A program made the position numbers and the translations under genes. From an uncultured Steroidobacteraceae bacterium (lineage in GTDB: Bacteria > Pseudomonadota > Gammaproteobacteria > Steroidobacterales > Steroidobacteraceae), in NCBI GenBank assembly GCA_955652795.1, contig CATPBQ010000102.1:1-24376 (forward strand): a DNA stretch of 24,376 nucleotides. The letters are read 5' to 3'. The notes under the pieces are model-generated. The model searched no databases, was not told the origin of the DNA, and saw nothing but the letters and a program-made list of their open reading frames with translations. This document shows positions 16,411 through 19,525 of this stretch, piece by piece; within the stretch, counting starts at the first letter, position 1; each line of letters opens with the position of its first letter.

Positions 16411-16464
16411 GGAGGTCTCCTTGATGCATGGCCGCATTTGAACATCCGTACACGCCGGCGGCCA

Positions 16465-16501
16465 ATCGCCTGTCCGGATCGCGATGATAAGCGCGATCTA
16501 T
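16465..16501 (-). promoter_or_regulatory. Putative OxyR (LysR-type) binding site upstream of dps
   Basis: Minus strand reads ATAG-N7-TTAT-N7-ATCC-N7-CGAT, matching 12/16 bases of the OxyR consensus ATAG-N7-CTAT-N7-ATAG-N7-CTAT with exact spacing. It ends 54 nt before the dps ATG. Confidence 0.6.
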
Positions 16502-16581
16502 CGCCGGAGTCTTGTGGGAAAGGCTTACCTGGGCGGGCCGCTGCGGCGCAACCGCAGGCGGCGCGGGGCCTGCGGCCCGTG

Positions 16582-17526
16582 TCAGGTGTCGTCGCGGTAG
16601 CGACGGATGCGGATCGCGGCGAACACCAGCGCCGCGGTGATCGCCAGCCCCAGCCACAGGTCGATGTCGCTGAACGCGGCGCCGAAGCGCAGTTGACCGA
16701 ACACCGAGGCGAGCGCGCCCGCACGCCCGCGGCCCAGATGCGGGGCCGGGAAGAGTGTGTGCCAGATCCCGTAGGTGCGGTAAGCGAGTAAATTCCACAG
16801 ATAGGTCGTCCCGAAGGCCATGCGCTCGAGCAGCGGCGCCAGCACCACCGGAACGGTGGCCCACAAGAACGGACTGCGCCGCGCCCAGGCCGAGACCACG
16901 AGCAGGTAGGCGGCGAACGGCGCATACCACAGCACACCGACAATGACGCACGCCAGCAGCGCCATCTCACCCTTGAGCCAGGCAAGCGTGTCCCAGCCCG
17001 GGATCGGGGGCAGGCGTCCGAAGGCGGCGTTCAACTCCCAGATGCCGACAAAGCTCAGGGACACCAGCAGCCCGAGCGCAAAGACGCCAAGCGGCACCAC
17101 CAGCAGCGCGACCAGGAGCTTCGACAGGACGGTCAGGTTGTCAGACACCGGTAAGGACTTCCAGAAGAGGATGCTGCGGTCCTTGCGCTCCGCGTACAGG
17201 CAGTCCAGCAGGTAGAAACTCAGCACAATCAGCGTCACGAGGGACAGTGGCATCGACACGGCGCTTTGCATGACGCTGAACATCGTCATGCCCTCGGAGC
17301 CGTCGTGGTGCATATCCGCGTGCGTCAGGCGGTACTTCACGCTCGCCACGAAAGCGCTGACCACCATCAGCGCCGCGACTACCAGCGGTGCGATCCACAG
17401 CGCGCGGTGCTCCCAGAACTCGCGCCGCACCAGCATGGCAAGCGTGCTGCCAGCTCCGATGCGGGCGGCCGGCGTGGACTCGCGCGGGGCTTCCCCGGTG
17501 GCAGCCTCTGCAAAGTGACTGTTCAT
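16582..17526 (-). CDS. ABC-2-type exporter permease
   Basis: About six hydrophobic segments, RREFWEH near the N-terminus, ERKDRSILFWKSLPVSD loop. ATGA overlap with the ATPase stop. Confidence 0.82.
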   Translation of the reverse strand: MNSHFAEAATGEAPRESTPAARIGAGSTLAMLVRREFWEHRALWIAPLVVAALMVVSAFVASVKYRLTHADMHHDGSEGMTMFSVMQSAVSMPLSLVTLIVLSFYLLDCLYAERKDRSILFWKSLPVSDNLTVLSKLLVALLVVPLGVFALGLLVSLSFVGIWELNAAFGRLPPIPGWDTLAWLKGEMALLACVIVGVLWYAPFAAYLLVVSAWARRSPFLWATVPVVLAPLLERMAFGTTYLWNLLAYRTYGIWHTLFPAPHLGRGRAGALASVFGQLRFGAAFSDIDLWLGLAITAALVFAAIRIRRYRDDT

Positions 17527-18383
17527 GTGCTTGGCGTCCCCTGCATCTTGGCGACGAACAGGTCGGCGATCGAGGGCGTGCGTAACTCGCCTAACGCGCC
17601 CAGCTCTGCGGCCGAACGACCCTCGAAGAGCATCGCCACACGCCCGAACACCTCGCGCTCGTAGAACGGTTTCAGCGCGCGTGCCTGCGGCGCCTGTTCC
17701 GCGGCCAGCGTCAGCTGCTGGTAGCGGCTGCCGAGGTCCTCGACGGAGGAACTCAGCGCCACGCGGCCGTGGTTGATGAAGATCACGTCGGTGAACAGGT
17801 TCTCGACTTCCTCCACCTGGTGAGTCGTGAGCAGGATGGTGCGCTCCTTGTTGAAATAGTCATTCAGCAGCGTGTCGTAAAACTTGCGCCGGTACAGCAG
17901 ATCAAGACCGAGGGTGGGCTCATCGAGCACCAGCAATCGCGCATCGATCGCGAGGATCAGCGCCAGGTGCAGCTGCGTCACCATGCCCTTGGAGAGCTCG
18001 CGCACGCGGCTGCTGGGGCGGATGTCGGTCTTGCTCAGAAATTCCGCGGCGCGTGCGCGATCGAAGCGCGGGTGCACGCCGCTCACCACCTCCAGCGCCT
18101 GGCTCACGCGCAGCCAGCGCGGCAGCACGGCCACGTCGGCCATGAAGCACACCTCGCGCATCAGCGCGTCGCGCTGCGTGCGCGGATCGAGTCCGAGCAC
18201 GGTGAGCTCGCCGCTGAAGGGGGTGAGTCCCAGCACCGCCTTGAGCGCGGTGGTCTTGCCGGCACCATTCGGACCGATGAGGCCGACGATGCGTCCGGGC
18301 TCGACGCTGAAGTTCACGCCATCCAGCGCACGGGTCGCGCCGTAGGCCTTGGCGAGTCCGCGCGCTTCAATTACTGCTGTCAT
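17523..18383 (-). CDS. ABC transporter ATP-binding protein (YtrB-like)
   Basis: Walker A GPNGAGKTT, signature LSKGM, Walker B LVLDEPT, H-loop TTHQ. Likely start ATG 18383 (MTAVIEARGL), inside the gntR 3' end. Confidence 0.9.
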   Translation of the reverse strand: MTAVIEARGLAKAYGATRALDGVNFSVEPGRIVGLIGPNGAGKTTALKAVLGLTPFSGELTVLGLDPRTQRDALMREVCFMADVAVLPRWLRVSQALEVVSGVHPRFDRARAAEFLSKTDIRPSSRVRELSKGMVTQLHLALILAIDARLLVLDEPTLGLDLLYRRKFYDTLLNDYFNKERTILLTTHQVEEVENLFTDVIFINHGRVALSSSVEDLGSRYQQLTLAAEQAPQARALKPFYEREVFGRVAMLFEGRSAAELGALGELRTPSIADLFVAKMQGTPST

Positions 18384-18795
18384 CTTCTTCACCTGGTGCG
18401 GCCGCACCGGCCGGATGCCCCGGCCACTTGGCCGCAGGCGCTGCGGCGCCCACGCGCTGCAATTCTTCCTGGGACAGGCCCAGGCGCTGAATGGTGGCGT
18501 ACACTTTCGGCCATTCCTCCTCGAGGAAACGCTGGCGCTCGTCCTTCATCAGCGCCTTGCGGGCGCCTGAGCTGACGAACATGCCCAGGCCGCGCCGCTT
18601 CTCCACCAGCTGCTCGTCGACGAGCTGCTGGTAGCCCTTGAGCACGGTGAGCGGATTCAGGCGGAAGTCCGCAGCGACACTGCGGACCGAGGGCAGCGGG
18701 TCTCCTTCCTTGAGCACTCCTTCGAGGATCATCGCTACCACCCGGTCTCGCAGTTGCCGGTAGATCGGCAGGCTGTCGTCCCACTGCGAATCCAT
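18367..18795 (-). CDS. GntR-family regulator, YtrA subfamily (short C-terminal domain)
   Basis: PIYRQL...LKEGDPLPSVRSVAADFRLNPLTVLKGYQQL...KRRGLGMFV winged HTH, short C-terminus, directly upstream of ABC genes. Likely start ATG 18795. Confidence 0.9.
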   Translation of the reverse strand: MDSQWDDSLPIYRQLRDRVVAMILEGVLKEGDPLPSVRSVAADFRLNPLTVLKGYQQLVDEQLVEKRRGLGMFVSSGARKALMKDERQRFLEEEWPKVYATIQRLGLSQEELQRVGAAAPAAKWPGHPAGAAAPGEEDDSSN

Positions 18796-18833
18796 GGTCG
18801 TTTGCACGGCGCCTGTGGCGGGGTATTAGCCGA

Positions 18834-19034
18834 CTAATCTACCAAAACGGCCGGCTCAGGCTGGCCAAACCAGCCGTGATCCGACTGCAGCGCCAGCACG
18901 TGTCGGGGATCCGCCTGCGTGCCCGGTGCAACGGAGGTCGACTGCAGGAAGGCGACGCTCAGAAGCACTGTGATGAGGACCGCGGCCACGCCGCAGGTGA
19001 CGCTACGATAGAGGGCGGAAGCGAGGGTGTTCAT
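18834..19034 (-). CDS. Small hydrophobic peptide 2 (66 aa), paralog of 19079-19237
   Basis: AAGGAG RBS 6 nt upstream of ATG. MNTLASALYRSVTCGVAAVLITVLLSVAFLQSTSVAP plus a 29-aa tail; one hydrophobic helix. Confidence 0.8.
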   Translation of the reverse strand: MNTLASALYRSVTCGVAAVLITVLLSVAFLQSTSVAPGTQADPRHVLALQSDHGWFGQPEPAVLVD

Positions 19035-19078
19035 GGTCGACTCCTTGATTGTTCTGGTGTGGCTCGGTTCCCGTGAAC

Positions 19079-19237
19079 TCAGGCGCGCTGGGCCTGCTCG
19101 GCGGCGACGGTGCGGCTGGCATGGAAGGGGGCGGCGGATGTGGACTGCACGAAGCTCAGGCTGAGCACAAAGGTGATCAGGACTGCGGCGGCGGCACAGG
19201 TCACGTCACGGTAGAGGGTGGAAGCGAAGCGGTTCAT
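19079..19237 (-). CDS. Small hydrophobic peptide 1 (52 aa), not in the ORF track
   Basis: Translated by hand: MNRFASTLYRDVTCAAAAVLITFVLSLSFVQSTSAAPFHASRTVAAEQAQRA-TGA. AAGGAG RBS 6 nt upstream; 25/37 N-terminal residues identical to peptide 2. Confidence 0.8.
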   Translation of the reverse strand: MNRFASTLYRDVTCAAAAVLITFVLSLSFVQSTSAAPFHASRTVAAEQAQRA

Positions 19238-19314
19238 GGTCATCTCCTTGGGTGTCGGGTTGTGGACTCTTGGGCTGTCTCGTCTGCGGATGGCTGCCTG
19301 GGCTGCCTCCCTTG

Positions 19315-19361
19315 GTGATGTACATTAGTATAACACTACTCAAGTGTCAAGCTATTACACT
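19315..19361. promoter_or_regulatory. Putative YtrA-type operator region
   Basis: Imperfect 22-bp palindrome GTGATGTACATTAGTATAACAC (19315-19336) over the -10, and AGTGT-N9-ACACT (19343-19361) over the -35. Confidence 0.55.
19322..19350 (-). promoter_or_regulatory. Sigma70-type promoter for the peptide-gntR-ABC operon
   Basis: Perfect -35 TTGACA (19350-19345), 17-bp spacer, -10 TAATGT (19327-19322), inside a short AT-rich island. Confidence 0.7.
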
Positions 19362-19383
19362 AAATCAGTCTCAAGGGGTCATC

Positions 19384-19430
19384 CGCGGTGCCGGGCGGTC
19401 TCCACGCCTTTGGAGAGCGCCGGCGCCGCG
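19384..19430. repeat. 47-bp intergenic inverted repeat (hairpin) between divergent promoters
   Basis: 18 Watson-Crick pairs plus 1 G-U, with one mismatch, one bulge and a 6-nt loop (CGCCTT). Confidence 0.7.
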
Positions 19431-19525
19431 ACGGTTTGAGCCCCGTGGCGCGGCCAGTGACCTAAGTGCTGCGGTCAGACGCTAGAATTCCTGGCTCTTT
19501 TTTTGAAAAGCACGAAGCACCCGCC

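What the first reader, a model, noticed from the sequence alone, without database searches (positions are those of the whole stretch)
16582..19361. Candidate undescribed peptide system: two tandem paralogous membrane peptides heading a YtrA-GntR/ABC exporter operon
Seen: one promoter, then peptide 1 (52 aa), peptide 2 (66 aa), GntR, ATPase and permease, all on the minus strand with 44- and 38-bp gaps, then overlaps, and no terminators. Both peptides have near-identical initiation regions (CAAGGAG-atg/tcg-ACCATGAAC), showing duplication of a whole translation unit. Established: YtrA-subfamily GntRs autorepress ABC operons, and the B. subtilis ytr operon responds to cell-wall stress and begins with a small ORF. 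Inference: the peptides are substrates or accessory subunits of the transporter and/or the ligand of the short-domain GntR, forming a self-contained peptide export/sensing circuit. No modification enzymes or peptidase are encoded in the operon.
Basis: partly seen in the sequence, partly recalled or inferred. Interest (0 to 1): 0.85.

Follow-up and report, generated by a model that had tools for sequence, protein, structure and literature searches.

The report
Membrane mini-protein array heading YtrA-ABC operon
Two real, related genes for tiny single-helix membrane proteins sit in front of a self-repressed ABC pump operon in a soil Steroidobacteraceae genome; this echoes the little-understood YtrG protein of Bacillus subtilis, comes in arrays of one to four genes in relatives, and its last gene overlaps control signals for the pump genes.

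Summary
On the minus strand lie pep1 (52 aa), pep2 (66 aa), a YtrA-type GntR, an ABC ATPase and an ABC-2 permease.

Both peptides are genuine genes: dN/dS is about 0.27 in the membrane helix and GC3 matches the neighbours. They belong to a small unannotated family (169 clusters among 1.84 billion representatives). Every named hit is a Steroidobacteraceae or unclassified Gammaproteobacteria metagenome-assembled genome.

Relatives carry 1-4 peptide genes, always directly upstream of the orthologous gntR. Other genera of the family carry unrelated-looking single-helix ORFs at the same position.

Two claims fail. There is a second, family-wide promoter-like element (TGsTAnnnT) just upstream of gntR. 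There is also a terminator-like hairpin plus U-run inside the last codons of pep2. These overlap the invariant C-terminus WFGQPEPAVLVD, so its conservation is not clean evidence of peptide function.

The architecture (small monotopic membrane protein, YtrA, ABC) is already known from B. subtilis ytrGABCDEF, whose YtrG is still poorly understood. Whether the peptides are partners, cargo or regulatory ORFs is unresolved.

Verdict: a new variant of a known kind, of moderate interest. First-reader notes of this scan describe similar mini-ORFs ahead of YtrA-ABC operons in other genomes; I did not test them.

The parts
19315..19350 (-). Promoter P1 with overlapping palindromic operator. -35 TTGACA 19350-19345; 17-nt spacer; -10 TAATGT 19327-19322. 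ACACT (19347-19343)-N5-AGTGT (19337-19333), and a 22-bp palindrome GTGTTATAC-TAAT-GTACATCAC at 19336-19315. Predicted transcription start near 19315.
   Evidence: Sequence. Conserved in about 60 related loci as TTGACACTnAAGTAGTGTTsTACTAGAGTAyAwCAC. The same GTGTTATA..TAnAACAC palindrome lies directly upstream of gntR in peptide-less relatives and in other families of the class. Unique in the assembled genome. The longest RNA-library contig of a relative reaches 66 nt upstream of position 19249, about 19315 if the relative's leader has the same length. The promoter scan tool did not call it, because TAATGT matches only 3 of 6 positions. GntR binding is inferred.
19079..19237 (-). pep1: short-form monotopic membrane mini-protein, 52 aa (SD AAGGAG at 19249-19244). 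Conserved helix core YRDVTCAAAAvLIT..SLSFVQSTS, then a variable Ala/Gln-rich tail.
   Evidence: ORF. 53 homologues of 49-58 aa. dN/dS 0.28 in the core and GC3 0.87. Against pep2, dN is 0.21 and dS 1.36, so the duplication is old. No Pfam or NCBIfam family above threshold.
18834..19034 (-). pep2: long-form monotopic membrane mini-protein, 66 aa (SD AAGGAG at 19046-19041). Same helix core, a variable 21-aa linker, and an invariant C-terminus WFGQPEPAVLVD.
   Evidence: 127 homologues, nearly all 64-70 aa. dN/dS 0.27 in the core. AlphaFold2 gives one helix over residues 3-33 (pLDDT above 90 for residues 11-30) and a low-confidence tail. Conservation has helical periodicity of 90-100 degrees. It is always the peptide gene nearest gntR in arrays of 1-4.
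18838..18868 (-). Terminator-like hairpin inside the last codons of pep2 (ACGGCUGGUUUGG-CCAGC-CUGAGCCGGCCGU), followed by UUUUGGUAGAUU.
   Evidence: The scan tool flags 18868-18851. The minimum-free-energy fold is, with an unremarkable z-score of -1.28. RNAalifold gives an 8-bp consensus stem, and 86 of 92 unique relatives have a stem ending at the U-run. Codon use fits base pairing: Pro(-8) is CCC 49, CCT 44, CCG 2, whereas Pro(-6) is CCG 82. Function as a terminator or attenuator is inferred.
18825..18851 (-). Internal promoter-like element P2: GCCGTTTTGGTAGATTAGTCGGCTAAT. Extended -10 with TG at 18844-18843 and TAGATT at 18841-18836. It overlaps pep2 codons 62-66 and the stop codon.
   Evidence: The last five codons plus stop (GCC/GCT, GTT TTG GTA GAT TAG) use rare AT-rich codons and are invariant in DNA across 97 unique relatives, except the Ala third base. 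TGsTAnnnT lies 29-64 nt upstream of the gntR ATG in 55 of 71 unique regions across the family, including where the peptide ORF ends earlier; control density is 0.002 per 100 nt. Unique in the genome. Promoter activity is inferred.
18367..18807 (-). YtrA-subfamily GntR repressor: 146 aa from GTG 18807, or 142 aa from ATG 18795.
   Evidence: PF00392 E = 3.9e-12 over residues 16-78. The best full-length short-type NCBIfam hit is PmtR, below its cut-off. The nearest solved structures are all short YtrA-type proteins of 113-134 aa: 3tqn at 4.7e-35, also 6sbs (YtrA_Sa) and 2du9. Orthologues at 60% identity or more occur in about 90 of 121 family genomes.
17523..18407 (-). ABC ATPase of the DrrA/PmtA-like ABC-2 exporter class. 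It overlaps the end of gntR.
   Evidence: PF00005 at 9.9e-21. TIGR01188 (drrA) at 5.9e-41 and PmtA at 4.8e-34, both below their cut-offs. 72-84% identical across the family.
16582..17526 (-). ABC-2 type permease, 314 aa, with an ATGA start/stop overlap with the ATPase.
   Evidence: ABC2_membrane_5 scores 23.7 bits against a cut-off of 25. Sources name relatives 'ABC-2 type transport system permease'. The AlphaFold2 model has pLDDT 75; its best PDB folds are NosY (7znq_Y, TM-score 0.46/0.52), then ABCG transporters.

Best explanation
**What is shown.** This is a self-repressed YtrA-type GntR/ABC-2 exporter module. Between its operator-covered promoter P1 and gntR it carries a tandem array of genes for small monotopic inner-membrane proteins: two genes here, one to four in relatives. 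The layout matches B. subtilis YtrG in ytrGABCDEF. The proteins are under purifying selection, occur only at this locus, and are conserved along one face of the helix. The array varies in number. A conserved promoter-like element and a terminator-like hairpin overlap the 3' end of pep2.

**What is inferred.**
- The topology is N-terminus in the cytoplasm and tail in the periplasm, judged from the charge distribution read directly from the sequence.
- GntR binds the P1 palindromes and keeps peptide synthesis off until the module is triggered.
- Once made, the peptides insert into the inner membrane and act through the conserved, small-residue-rich helix face (C14, A18, I21/T22, F29, T33).
- They act as partners or ligands of the ABC-2 transporter and tune its activity. 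Through the ATPase they would also set the free pool of the repressor, as shown for MbrR/MbrAB.
- The last codons of pep2 also serve as regulatory sequence. The hairpin and U-run limit read-through from P1. The extended -10 (P2) gives gntR and the pump a basal, peptide-independent transcript.
For: **Real genes**
- dN/dS is 0.27-0.28 and GC3 is like the neighbouring genes.
- 127 long-form and 53 short-form homologues exist.
- RNA-library contigs of a relative span leader, peptide, gntR and ATPase.

**Strict linkage to the module**
- All peptide-profile hits in 22 family genomes are directly upstream of the orthologous gntR-ATPase-permease.
- There are no other copies in the window's own genome.
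- Nearly all of the 62 other family loci examined carry a single-helix ORF of 26-116 aa at the same position.

**Membrane helix with an interface**
- AlphaFold2 predicts a helix over residues 3-33.
- Conservation has a periodicity of 90-100 degrees.

**Regulation**
- P1 and its palindromes are conserved.
- The same palindrome precedes gntR where no peptide gene is present.
- Evidence for P2 is; evidence for the hairpin is.

**Classification and precedents**
- The GntR is of the YtrA type.
- The transporter is of the ABC-2 type.
- Published precedents: YtrG is a functional monotopic membrane protein of the ytr operon (PMC13729164, PMC13729185); MbrR is sequestered by its ABC ATPase (bioRxiv 10.64898/2026.02.18.706565); PmtR is released from DNA by PSM peptides (PMC5080381).
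Against: - No direct evidence shows any contact between peptide and transporter.
- The peptide profile against the permease profile shows no similarity, unlike the reported YtrG-YtrF similarity.
- The mirror-tree partial correlation between peptide and permease is -0.02 across 24 loci, although power is low.
- Copy number varies from 1 to 4, and other genera carry unrelated-looking sequences. This is unusual for a stoichiometric subunit.
- Some relatives of the module lack any such ORF.
- Translation, topology, GntR binding, P2 activity and termination are all untested.
- The RNA contigs come from a relative, and DNA carry-over cannot be excluded.
Confidence: 0.42

Rival explanations
1. **Cargo and inducer, as in the PSM/Pmt system.** The peptides are the pump's own substrates. 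They are hydrophobic peptides that the ABC-2 transporter extracts from the inner membrane. Their accumulation releases or sequesters the GntR, giving a self-inducing export loop.
For: - Tandem arrays of 1-4 fast-evolving paralogues resemble peptide-product loci.
- The GntR and ATPase give their best short-type NCBIfam hits to PmtR and PmtA.
- Precedent exists for peptide-responsive YtrA repressors (PMC5080381; bioRxiv 10.64898/2026.02.18.706565).
- The peptides are the first products of the repressed promoter.
Against: - The PmtR and PmtA hits are far below their cut-offs: 49.9 against 200 bits, and 117.9 against 350 bits.
- The helix is uniformly hydrophobic over about 20 residues, not amphipathic like PSMs (read from the sequence; helix).
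- The conserved part is the membrane helix and the variable part is the tail.
- No outer-membrane export component is encoded nearby.
- No peptide-permease co-evolution signal was found.
Confidence: 0.2
2. **Cis-regulatory ORF.** The main job of the last (long-form) ORF is regulatory. A ribosome translating through the hairpin to the TAG stop inside P2 decides whether P1 transcripts terminate or continue into gntR-ABC. The invariant C-terminus may act as a nascent-chain arrest or monitoring motif, read out when the membrane helix emerges from the ribosome, as with MifM, SecM and VemP (recalled from memory).
For: - The layout is an N-terminal membrane helix, a linker variable in sequence but fixed in length, and an invariant extreme C-terminus. 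The tail after the helix is 33.4 +/- 1.8 aa, and 117 of 177 sequences have exactly 33; short forms have 22 +/- 6.8.
- The hairpin and U-run lie inside the ORF, upstream of its stop codon.
- The Gln codon sits in the hairpin loop yet never varies, and the residues W, F, G, Q, P, E, P do not vary despite third-base changes.
- The gene nearest gntR is always the long form.
Against: - The residue invariance can be explained by the overlapping RNA/DNA constraints alone.
- The hairpin does not cover the gntR ribosome-binding site, unlike MifM and SecM.
- The hairpin's z-score is only -1.28.
- Other genera have ORFs that stop before the P2 element.
- The short forms and the helix core are themselves under purifying selection, which a pure leader ORF does not need.
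- The long-form sample was retrieved through the FGQPEPAV pattern, which narrows its diversity.
Confidence: 0.15
3. **Stress-induced membrane-active peptides, like type I toxins.** The peptides have a function of their own, and the co-regulated pump provides tolerance or immunity.
For: - They are small hydrophobic single-helix proteins under tight repression.
- They turn over fast between genera.
- YtrG was examined as a possible toxin because of the same features and showed moderate antibacterial activity as a synthetic peptide (PMC13729164).
Against: - YtrG turned out to be protective rather than toxic in vivo (PMC13729164).
- No antisense RNA or antitoxin feature was seen, and there is no Rfam match.
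- The conserved helix face suggests a specific partner rather than general membrane damage.
Confidence: 0.1
4. **Exported precursors.** The conserved N-terminus is a cleavable signal or leader sequence, cut after QSTS, and the variable tails are released as periplasmic or secreted peptides (RiPP- or pheromone-like).
For: - The pattern of a conserved N-terminal part and divergent tails, with several precursor genes in a row, holds (scan note e1-5315884).
- Small residues at -3 and -1 (S-T-S) precede AAP/VAP.
Against: - The hydrophobic stretch is about 20 residues and is modelled as one continuous helix through residue 33. By general knowledge this is longer than typical signal-peptide cores.
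- Specific helix positions (C14, T22, F29, T33) are nearly invariant across genera.
- No maturation enzyme, peptidase or dedicated leader-cleaving transporter lies in the conserved neighbourhood.
- The short-form tails are low-complexity Ala/Gln/Ser runs.
Confidence: 0.07
5. **Not genes.** The ORFs are chance reading frames in a long leader region, conserved only through regulatory RNA or DNA.
For: - Part of pep2 (the last 13 codons) does carry RNA/DNA-level constraints.
- No annotation or family model exists.
Against: - dN/dS is 0.27-0.28 with dS of about 0.7 in the helix core, where no RNA structure is predicted.
- Shine-Dalgarno sequences are conserved at the right spacing.
- GC3 is 0.77-0.87.
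- There are 169 representative clusters of small proteins with the same frame and length.
Confidence: 0.03

Closest known systems
Bacillus subtilis ytrGABCDEF operon: YtrG, YtrA, and the ABC transporters YtrB2CD and YtrE2F2
   Same: - The first gene encodes a small monotopic membrane protein. YtrG is 45 aa, with its N-terminus in the cytoplasm and C-terminus outside (PMC13729164).
- It is followed by a YtrA-type GntR autorepressor and ABC transporter genes.
- A palindromic operator lies at the promoter.
- YtrG is not part of either published transporter model, yet its deletion has a phenotype (PMC13729185, PMC13729164).
   Different: - No sequence relationship was seen. The published YtrG fragments (basic N-terminus MKHKKRNKRN; VLVMIGF) have no counterpart here.
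- This host is a Gram-negative Steroidobacteraceae.
- Here there is one ATPase and one ABC-2 permease, instead of two ATPases, two permeases and a MacB/FtsX-like YtrF.
- The peptide genes come as arrays of 1-4 paralogues.
- The peptides show no similarity to the permease, whereas YtrG resembles the first membrane segment of YtrF.
- An internal promoter-like element and hairpin separate the peptides from gntR; by contrast, the ytr papers note the lack of a secondary promoter before ytrEF (PMC13729185).
MbrR-MbrAB 'extruder-repressor' module of Streptococcus salivarius (bioRxiv 10.64898/2026.02.18.706565)
   Same: - A YtrA-family repressor is encoded with its own ABC ATPase and permease.
- A palindromic operator lies at the promoter.
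- The paper proposes that membrane peptides engaging the transporter control the repressor through the ATPase. This is a plausible route by which the peptides here could act.
   Different: - The Mbr system senses foreign bacteriocins and encodes no peptide of its own in the operon.
- It was described for Bacillota.
- An interaction between the GntR and ATPase of this window was not tested.
PmtR-PmtABCD and phenol-soluble modulins of Staphylococcus aureus (PMC5080381)
   Same: - A GntR-type repressor of an ABC exporter is released by small self-made peptides.
- The best short-type NCBIfam hits of the window's GntR and ATPase are PmtR and PmtA.
   Different: - The hits are far below the equivalog cut-offs.
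- By general knowledge, PSMs are amphipathic, are not membrane-spanning, and are encoded elsewhere in the genome.
- Pmt has two ATPases and two permeases.
Regulatory nascent-chain 'monitoring substrates' MifM, SecM and VemP (recalled from memory, not checked in papers here)
   Same: - The upstream ORF is small, with an N-terminal membrane or signal segment, a spacer, and a highly conserved C-terminal motif.
- An RNA hairpin lies near its end, just ahead of genes for a membrane machine.
   Different: - The downstream genes are a repressor and an ABC pump, not a secretion or insertion factor.
- The hairpin lies inside the ORF and does not mask the downstream ribosome-binding site.
- No arrest has been shown, and the C-terminal conservation is confounded by DNA/RNA signals.

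Membership tests
YtrA subfamily of GntR regulators | N-terminal winged helix-turn-helix of the GntR family | tested here: met
   PF00392 E = 3.9e-12, residues 16-78, 46.1 bits against a cut-off of 27.
YtrA subfamily of GntR regulators | Very short C-terminal domain, giving a total length of about 120-150 aa | tested here: met
   The protein is 146 aa (142 from the ATG). All best PDB matches are short GntR proteins of 113-134 aa: 3tqn at 4.7e-35, 3ic7, 6sbs (YtrA_Sa) and 2du9.
YtrA subfamily of GntR regulators | Encoded with an ABC transporter and autoregulated through a palindromic operator at its own promoter | tested here: inconclusive
   Gene linkage and conserved palindromes over P1 are shown. 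DNA binding cannot be tested with these tools.
ABC-2 (type V) exporter | ABC ATPase of the DrrA/NodI/PmtA class | tested here: met
   PF00005 at 9.9e-21. The best NCBIfam hits are drrA, PmtA, GldA and NodI, all as sub-threshold relatives.
ABC-2 (type V) exporter | Permease with the ABC-2 membrane fold | tested here: inconclusive
   ABC2_membrane_5 scores 23.7 bits, just under the cut-off of 25. Foldseek's top hits are NosY and ABCG transporters at probability about 1.0, but E = 0.016 and TM-score is 0.46-0.52. Source names read 'ABC-2 type transport system permease'.
YtrG-like leader membrane protein | Small single-pass membrane protein encoded as first gene of a YtrA/ABC operon | tested here: met
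   ORF positions, the AlphaFold2 helix and linkage in all loci examined. The published description of YtrG is in PMC13729164.
YtrG-like leader membrane protein | Sequence homology to B. subtilis YtrG | tested here: inconclusive
   Only fragments of YtrG quoted in PMC13729164 were available (MKHKKRNKRN, VLVMIGF), and neither occurs in pep1 or pep2. The full sequence was not compared. No Pfam or NCBIfam family links them.
Pmt/PSM system | Equivalog-level match to PmtR and PmtA | tested here: not met
   PmtR scores 49.9 bits against a cut-off of 200, and PmtA 117.9 against 350.
RiPP precursor cluster | Modification enzyme and/or leader peptidase in the conserved neighbourhood | tested here: not met
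   The neighbours are mdh, an acyl-CoA dehydrogenase, DUF3667, Dps and Mla/MCE genes. Synteny in relatives shows only mdh, the peptides, gntR and the ABC genes.
Intrinsic terminator | GC-rich hairpin immediately followed by a U-run | tested here: inconclusive
   The scan tool flags 18868-18851. A 13-bp stem is followed by UUUUGG and recurs in 86 of 92 relatives. However, the U-run has only four U's, the z-score is -1.28, and no 3'-end data exist.
Translation-arrest 'monitoring substrate' (MifM/SecM type) | Ribosome stalling at the conserved C-terminal motif, relieved by membrane insertion | not testable with these tools
   Only the layout is compatible: helix, a spacer of about 33 aa, and an invariant end.

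The most novel reading that the evidence does not exclude
The long-form gene may be a translation-coupled switch. Its fixed-length spacer places the membrane helix at the ribosome exit just as the ribosome reaches the invariant WFGQPEPAVLVD-stop segment. That segment is also a terminator hairpin with a U-run and the -10 of the next promoter. Successful membrane insertion, or its failure, would then decide whether transcripts from the repressed promoter run on into the repressor and pump genes. This would be a MifM/SecM-like monitoring ORF wired to a YtrA-ABC envelope module. The upstream short-form copies would act as the membrane ligands.
Probability: 0.12. Interest if true: 0.85.

Novelty: new variant of a known kind. 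Interest (0 to 1): 0.52.

Why it matters
- **An open question about YtrA repressors.** YtrA-type repressors have no proper ligand pocket, and how their ABC modules sense the envelope is unsettled. The role of the small membrane protein YtrG in the B. subtilis model operon is only starting to be studied.
- **The arrangement is not confined to Bacillus.** Across one Gram-negative family, the slot between the operator and gntR almost always holds one or more fast-evolving single-helix membrane proteins. In one clade they form arrays of 1-4 paralogues.
- **Comparative material.** Hundreds of natural variants are available, with a conserved helix face and a fixed spacer. They could be used to ask what such peptides do.
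- **A caution for small-protein annotation.** The most conserved peptide motif here overlaps a promoter-like element and a hairpin. Residue conservation alone would have been misread as peptide function.

Tried and rejected
- **Pfam, NCBIfam and Rfam.** The peptides have no family above threshold. The 18300-19500 region has no Rfam match.
- **Peptide similar to the permease's first membrane segment, as YtrG is to YtrF?** BLASTP gives E = 86. hhalign of the peptide profile against a 29-sequence permease alignment gives probability 0.2%. Rejected.
- **Mirror-tree test on 24 unique complete loci.** The partial correlation between peptide and permease, given the ATPase and GntR, is -0.02 (permutation p = 0.59). 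This gives no support, though power is low.
- **Sigma-54 reading of the P2 element.** Rejected by reading the aligned sequences: half of the loci have TGC instead of the required TGG, and the GC spacing is off by one.
- **P2 as a second GntR operator.** It contains no ACACT/AGTGT half-site, read. Not supported, but not excluded.
- **Pure protein-level reading of WFGQPEP.** I inferred this at first from dN = 0 and dS = 0.63. I weakened it after seeing that the synonymous changes are the ones that keep hairpin pairs.
- **TonB-box resemblance of LPEVVVTAxR repeats in peptides of other genera.** Pfam found nothing. A motif scan of the window's own genome gave only 4 hits, one of them in a long ORF. 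Left as an untested lead.
- **Search for cultured carriers.** All 50 species-level genomes with the long form are metagenome-assembled.
- **RNA evidence.** Only Logan contigs of a 90-95% identical relative were available, so no read-level 5' or 3' ends could be obtained.
- **The search for related loci with the diverse alignment A3.** The call failed because the alignment has no stretch conserved enough.

Full report
**1. The observation**

On the minus strand the window carries five genes in a row:
- pep1, 19079-19237, 52 aa
- pep2, 18834-19034, 66 aa
- a GntR gene, 18367-18807
- an ABC ATPase, 17523-18407
- a permease, 16582-17526

There are 44 bp between the peptide genes. There are 26 bp from pep2 to the GTG start of gntR, or 38 bp to the ATG at 18795. 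GntR and the ATPase overlap, and the ATPase and permease share an ATGA overlap.

Both peptide genes have AAGGAG six bases before ATGAAC. For pep1 this means the second ATG is the usable start. The two products are 68% identical over their first 37 residues (E = 1e-16) and unrelated after that.

**2. Are they genes?**

Yes, on four lines of evidence.
- The long form has 127 homologues in the 5.8-billion-protein collection, nearly all 64-70 aa. The short form has 53, of 49-58 aa.
- Across about 55-60 unique orthologous sequences, the 29-codon helix core has dN/dS 0.27 (long form) and 0.28 (short form), with dS about 0.7.
- GC3 is 0.77 and 0.87, like the neighbouring genes.
- The window's two copies differ by dN 0.21 and dS 1.36, so the duplication is old.

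A profile of diverse members found only 169 representative clusters among 1.84 billion, almost all small proteins of 42-104 aa. No Pfam or NCBIfam model matches above threshold. Named hits are Steroidobacteraceae or unclassified Gammaproteobacteria metagenome-assembled genomes from soil.

AlphaFold2 gives one confident helix over residues 3-33 and a low-confidence tail. Conservation along the helix has a periodicity of 90-100 degrees. The near-invariant positions are C14, A18, I21/T22, F29 and T33. This is the pattern of a helix-helix packing face. From the charge distribution read in the sequence, I infer that the N-terminus is cytoplasmic and the tail periplasmic.

**3. Linkage and arrays**

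In 121 genomes of the same GTDB family, the peptide profile hit 22. Every hit lies immediately upstream of an orthologous gntR-ATPase-permease. The window's own genome has only these two copies.

The GntR orthologue, at 60% identity or more, is present in about 90 of the 121 genomes. I fetched or already held the upstream regions of about 60 more loci. Nearly all carry a single-helix ORF of 26-116 aa at the same position, but of several sequence types that do not align with one another. A handful have none; there the P1-type palindrome sits directly before gntR.

Outside the family, scattered families of the class keep the three-gene core and the palindrome, with or without such an ORF.

Within the window's clade the number of peptide genes varies.
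- Among 49 species-level genomes, 26 have one, 17 have two and 6 have three.
- Metagenome contigs reach four.
- The copy next to gntR is always the long form, and extra copies are short forms. These loci were retrieved through the FGQPEPAV pattern, so this sample is biased towards long-form carriers.

**4. The core module**

- The GntR has the PF00392 DNA-binding domain and a short tail. Its closest solved relatives are all 113-134-aa YtrA-type proteins.
- The ATPase belongs to the DrrA/PmtA/NodI class.
- The permease scores just under the ABC2_membrane_5 threshold. Its model resembles NosY and then ABCG transporters. This points to an ABC-2 (type V) exporter, although the fold match is weak.
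- The neighbours are mdh (divergent), an acyl-CoA dehydrogenase, DUF3667, Dps and an Mla/MCE system. No peptidase or modifying enzyme is present.

**5.

*Promoter P1.* P1 reads TTGACA (19350-19345), 17 nt, TAATGT (19327-19322). In relatives the -10 is TAGAGT. P1 is conserved almost base for base and is covered by two overlapping palindromes: ACACT-N5-AGTGT and the 22-bp GTGTTATAC-TAAT-GTACATCAC. The pattern-scan tool did not call it, because the window's -10 matches only 3 of 6 consensus positions. The palindrome is unique in the assembled genome, which is 76% complete.

*A second signal, P2.* The last five codons and stop of pep2 (GCC GTT TTG GTA GAT TAG) are identical in DNA in 97 unique relatives, apart from seven with GCT for Ala. 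They use codons that are rare for this GC-rich genome.

Across the whole family a core TG[G/C]TAnnnT lies 29-64 nt before the gntR ATG in 55 of 71 unique regions. This includes loci where the peptide ORF ends earlier. The control density in coding DNA is 0.002 per 100 nt. The invariant positions (TG, then T, A and the final T) are those of an extended -10 promoter, so I read it as an internal promoter, P2.

This explains why peptides of unrelated types end in LVD, LLQ, LVQ, LVR or LLK: they read into the same DNA element.

*A hairpin.* Immediately upstream, codons for H-G-W-F-G-Q-P-E-P-A fold into a 13-bp hairpin that is directly followed by UUUUGG. The scan tool flags the site as terminator-like. 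In 86 of 92 unique relatives a stem ends at the U-run.

The synonymous variation I first took as proof of peptide-level selection (dN 0, dS 0.63) is the kind that keeps base pairs.
- Phe is TTT or TTC, opposite a G.
- Glu is GAG or GAA, opposite a U.
- Pro(-8) is CCC 49, CCT 44 and CCG only 2, whereas Pro(-6) is CCG 82.

The conservation of WFGQPEPAVLVD is therefore confounded by RNA and DNA constraints. Some peptide-level constraint may remain, because the Gln codon lies in the loop yet never varies. Across the family, the 48 nt before P2 fold somewhat better than control coding windows (-17.0 against -14.5 kcal/mol, p = 4e-4).

*Transcription.* Contigs from three soil RNA libraries match a 90-95% identical relative with a single peptide gene. 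They span the leader, the peptide gene, gntR and the ATPase. The longest reaches 66 nt upstream of position 19249. That is about 19315, the predicted P1 start, if the relative's leader has the same length. This fits read-through transcription from P1. However, contigs do not prove a single transcript, and DNA carry-over cannot be excluded.

**6. Mechanism**

*Shown:*
- real membrane mini-proteins tied to this locus
- a conserved helix face
- an operator-covered promoter
- a conserved internal promoter-like element
- a hairpin with a U-run overlapping the last ORF

*Inferred:*
- GntR represses P1.
- The peptides act in the inner membrane as partners or ligands of the ABC-2 transporter.
- The transporter state feeds back on the repressor.
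- P2 gives basal expression of the repressor and pump.
- The hairpin limits read-through.

*Published precedents:*
- YtrG is a 45-aa monotopic protein, the first gene of ytrGABCDEF, and has a deletion phenotype (PMC12772383, PMC13729185, PMC13729164).
- MbrR is sequestered by the ATPase of its own ABC transporter when peptides engage the pump (bioRxiv 10.64898/2026.02.18.706565).
- PmtR is released from DNA by PSM peptides (PMC5080381).
- Sulfolobus YtrA regulates membrane-protein genes (PMC6746942).

*Against a stoichiometric-subunit reading:*
- Copy number varies, and the sequence type is replaced between genera.
- The peptides show no similarity to the permease.
- No co-evolution signal was found, though power is low.

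The rival explanations are cargo/inducer, cis-regulatory ORF, toxin-like effector, exported precursor and non-gene. Each is scored in its own section.

**7. Comparison and novelty**

The architecture is that of ytrGABCDEF, so the kind is known. New here are:
- a distinct, unannotated peptide family in a Gram-negative lineage
- tandem arrays of 1-4 paralogues with a long form always last
- family-wide occupancy of the operator-to-gntR slot by unrelated single-helix ORFs
- overlap of the last ORF with a hairpin and a promoter-like element

First-reader notes of this scan describe tandem mini-ORFs or a 58-aa membrane peptide ahead of YtrA-ABC operons in other genomes. I did not test them. They suggest the pattern may be general.

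**8. Verdict**

This is a new variant of a known kind, of moderate interest. All carriers found are uncultured, which limits direct experiments.

Noticed in passing
window 18825-18851 (-): Dual coding. The last five codons and stop of pep2 are identical in DNA in 97 unique relatives apart from the Ala third base, and they use rare AT-rich codons. They coincide with a family-wide TGsTAnnnT element upstream of gntR. Peptides of unrelated types in other genera therefore share C-terminal LVD, LLQ, LVQ, LVR or LLK because they read into the same DNA signal.
   Followed up: yes
L067:1658-1984(-), L068:636-965(+), L074:1636-1974(-), L061:627-917(+), L060:609-941(+), L076:1644-1988(-): In other genera of the family, the ORF upstream of gntR is 95-116 aa. 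It has a membrane helix followed by one or two repeats of L-P/G-E-[IV]-V-V-[TV]-A-x-R. From memory, this resembles the TonB box at the start of TonB-dependent receptors. Pfam found nothing, and a scan of the window's own genome was uninformative.
   Followed up: partly
L186, L188-L191 (other families of the class); L082, L087, L090, L098 (same family): The 22-bp palindrome GTGTTATAGTT..TAnAACAC is conserved directly upstream of gntR over class-level distances, including in loci without any peptide ORF. It is probably the ancestral autoregulatory operator of this GntR-ABC-2 module.
   Followed up: partly
window 18889-19137, in RNA-library contigs X15, X16 and X19: A close relative (90-95% identity) present in soil metatranscriptome assemblies has a single peptide gene. 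On the window it appears as a junction that skips 247 bases, with 44 other letters between: a pep1-like N-terminal part joined to a pep2-like C-terminal part.
   Followed up: partly
window 16438-16581 (-): The scan tool found no terminator-like site on the minus strand between the permease stop (16582) and the dps start (16437). In relatives (L001-L003) the gene after the permease is a convergent MFS gene instead, so dps is not a conserved part of this operon.
   Followed up: no
long-form peptides, residues 34-54: The linker between the helix and the C-terminal motif varies in sequence (dN/dS about 0.7) but is nearly fixed in length. The tail after the helix is 33.4 +/- 1.8 aa, and 117 of 177 sequences have exactly 33. 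Short-form tails range from 13 to 42 aa.
   Followed up: partly
other genomes (scan notes e1-4230410 and e1-4081498): First-reader notes of this scan report three tandem paralogous mini-ORFs, and an unannotated 58-aa membrane peptide, at the head of YtrA-ABC operons in unrelated genomes. These are possibly the same general architecture. I did not check them.
   Followed up: no
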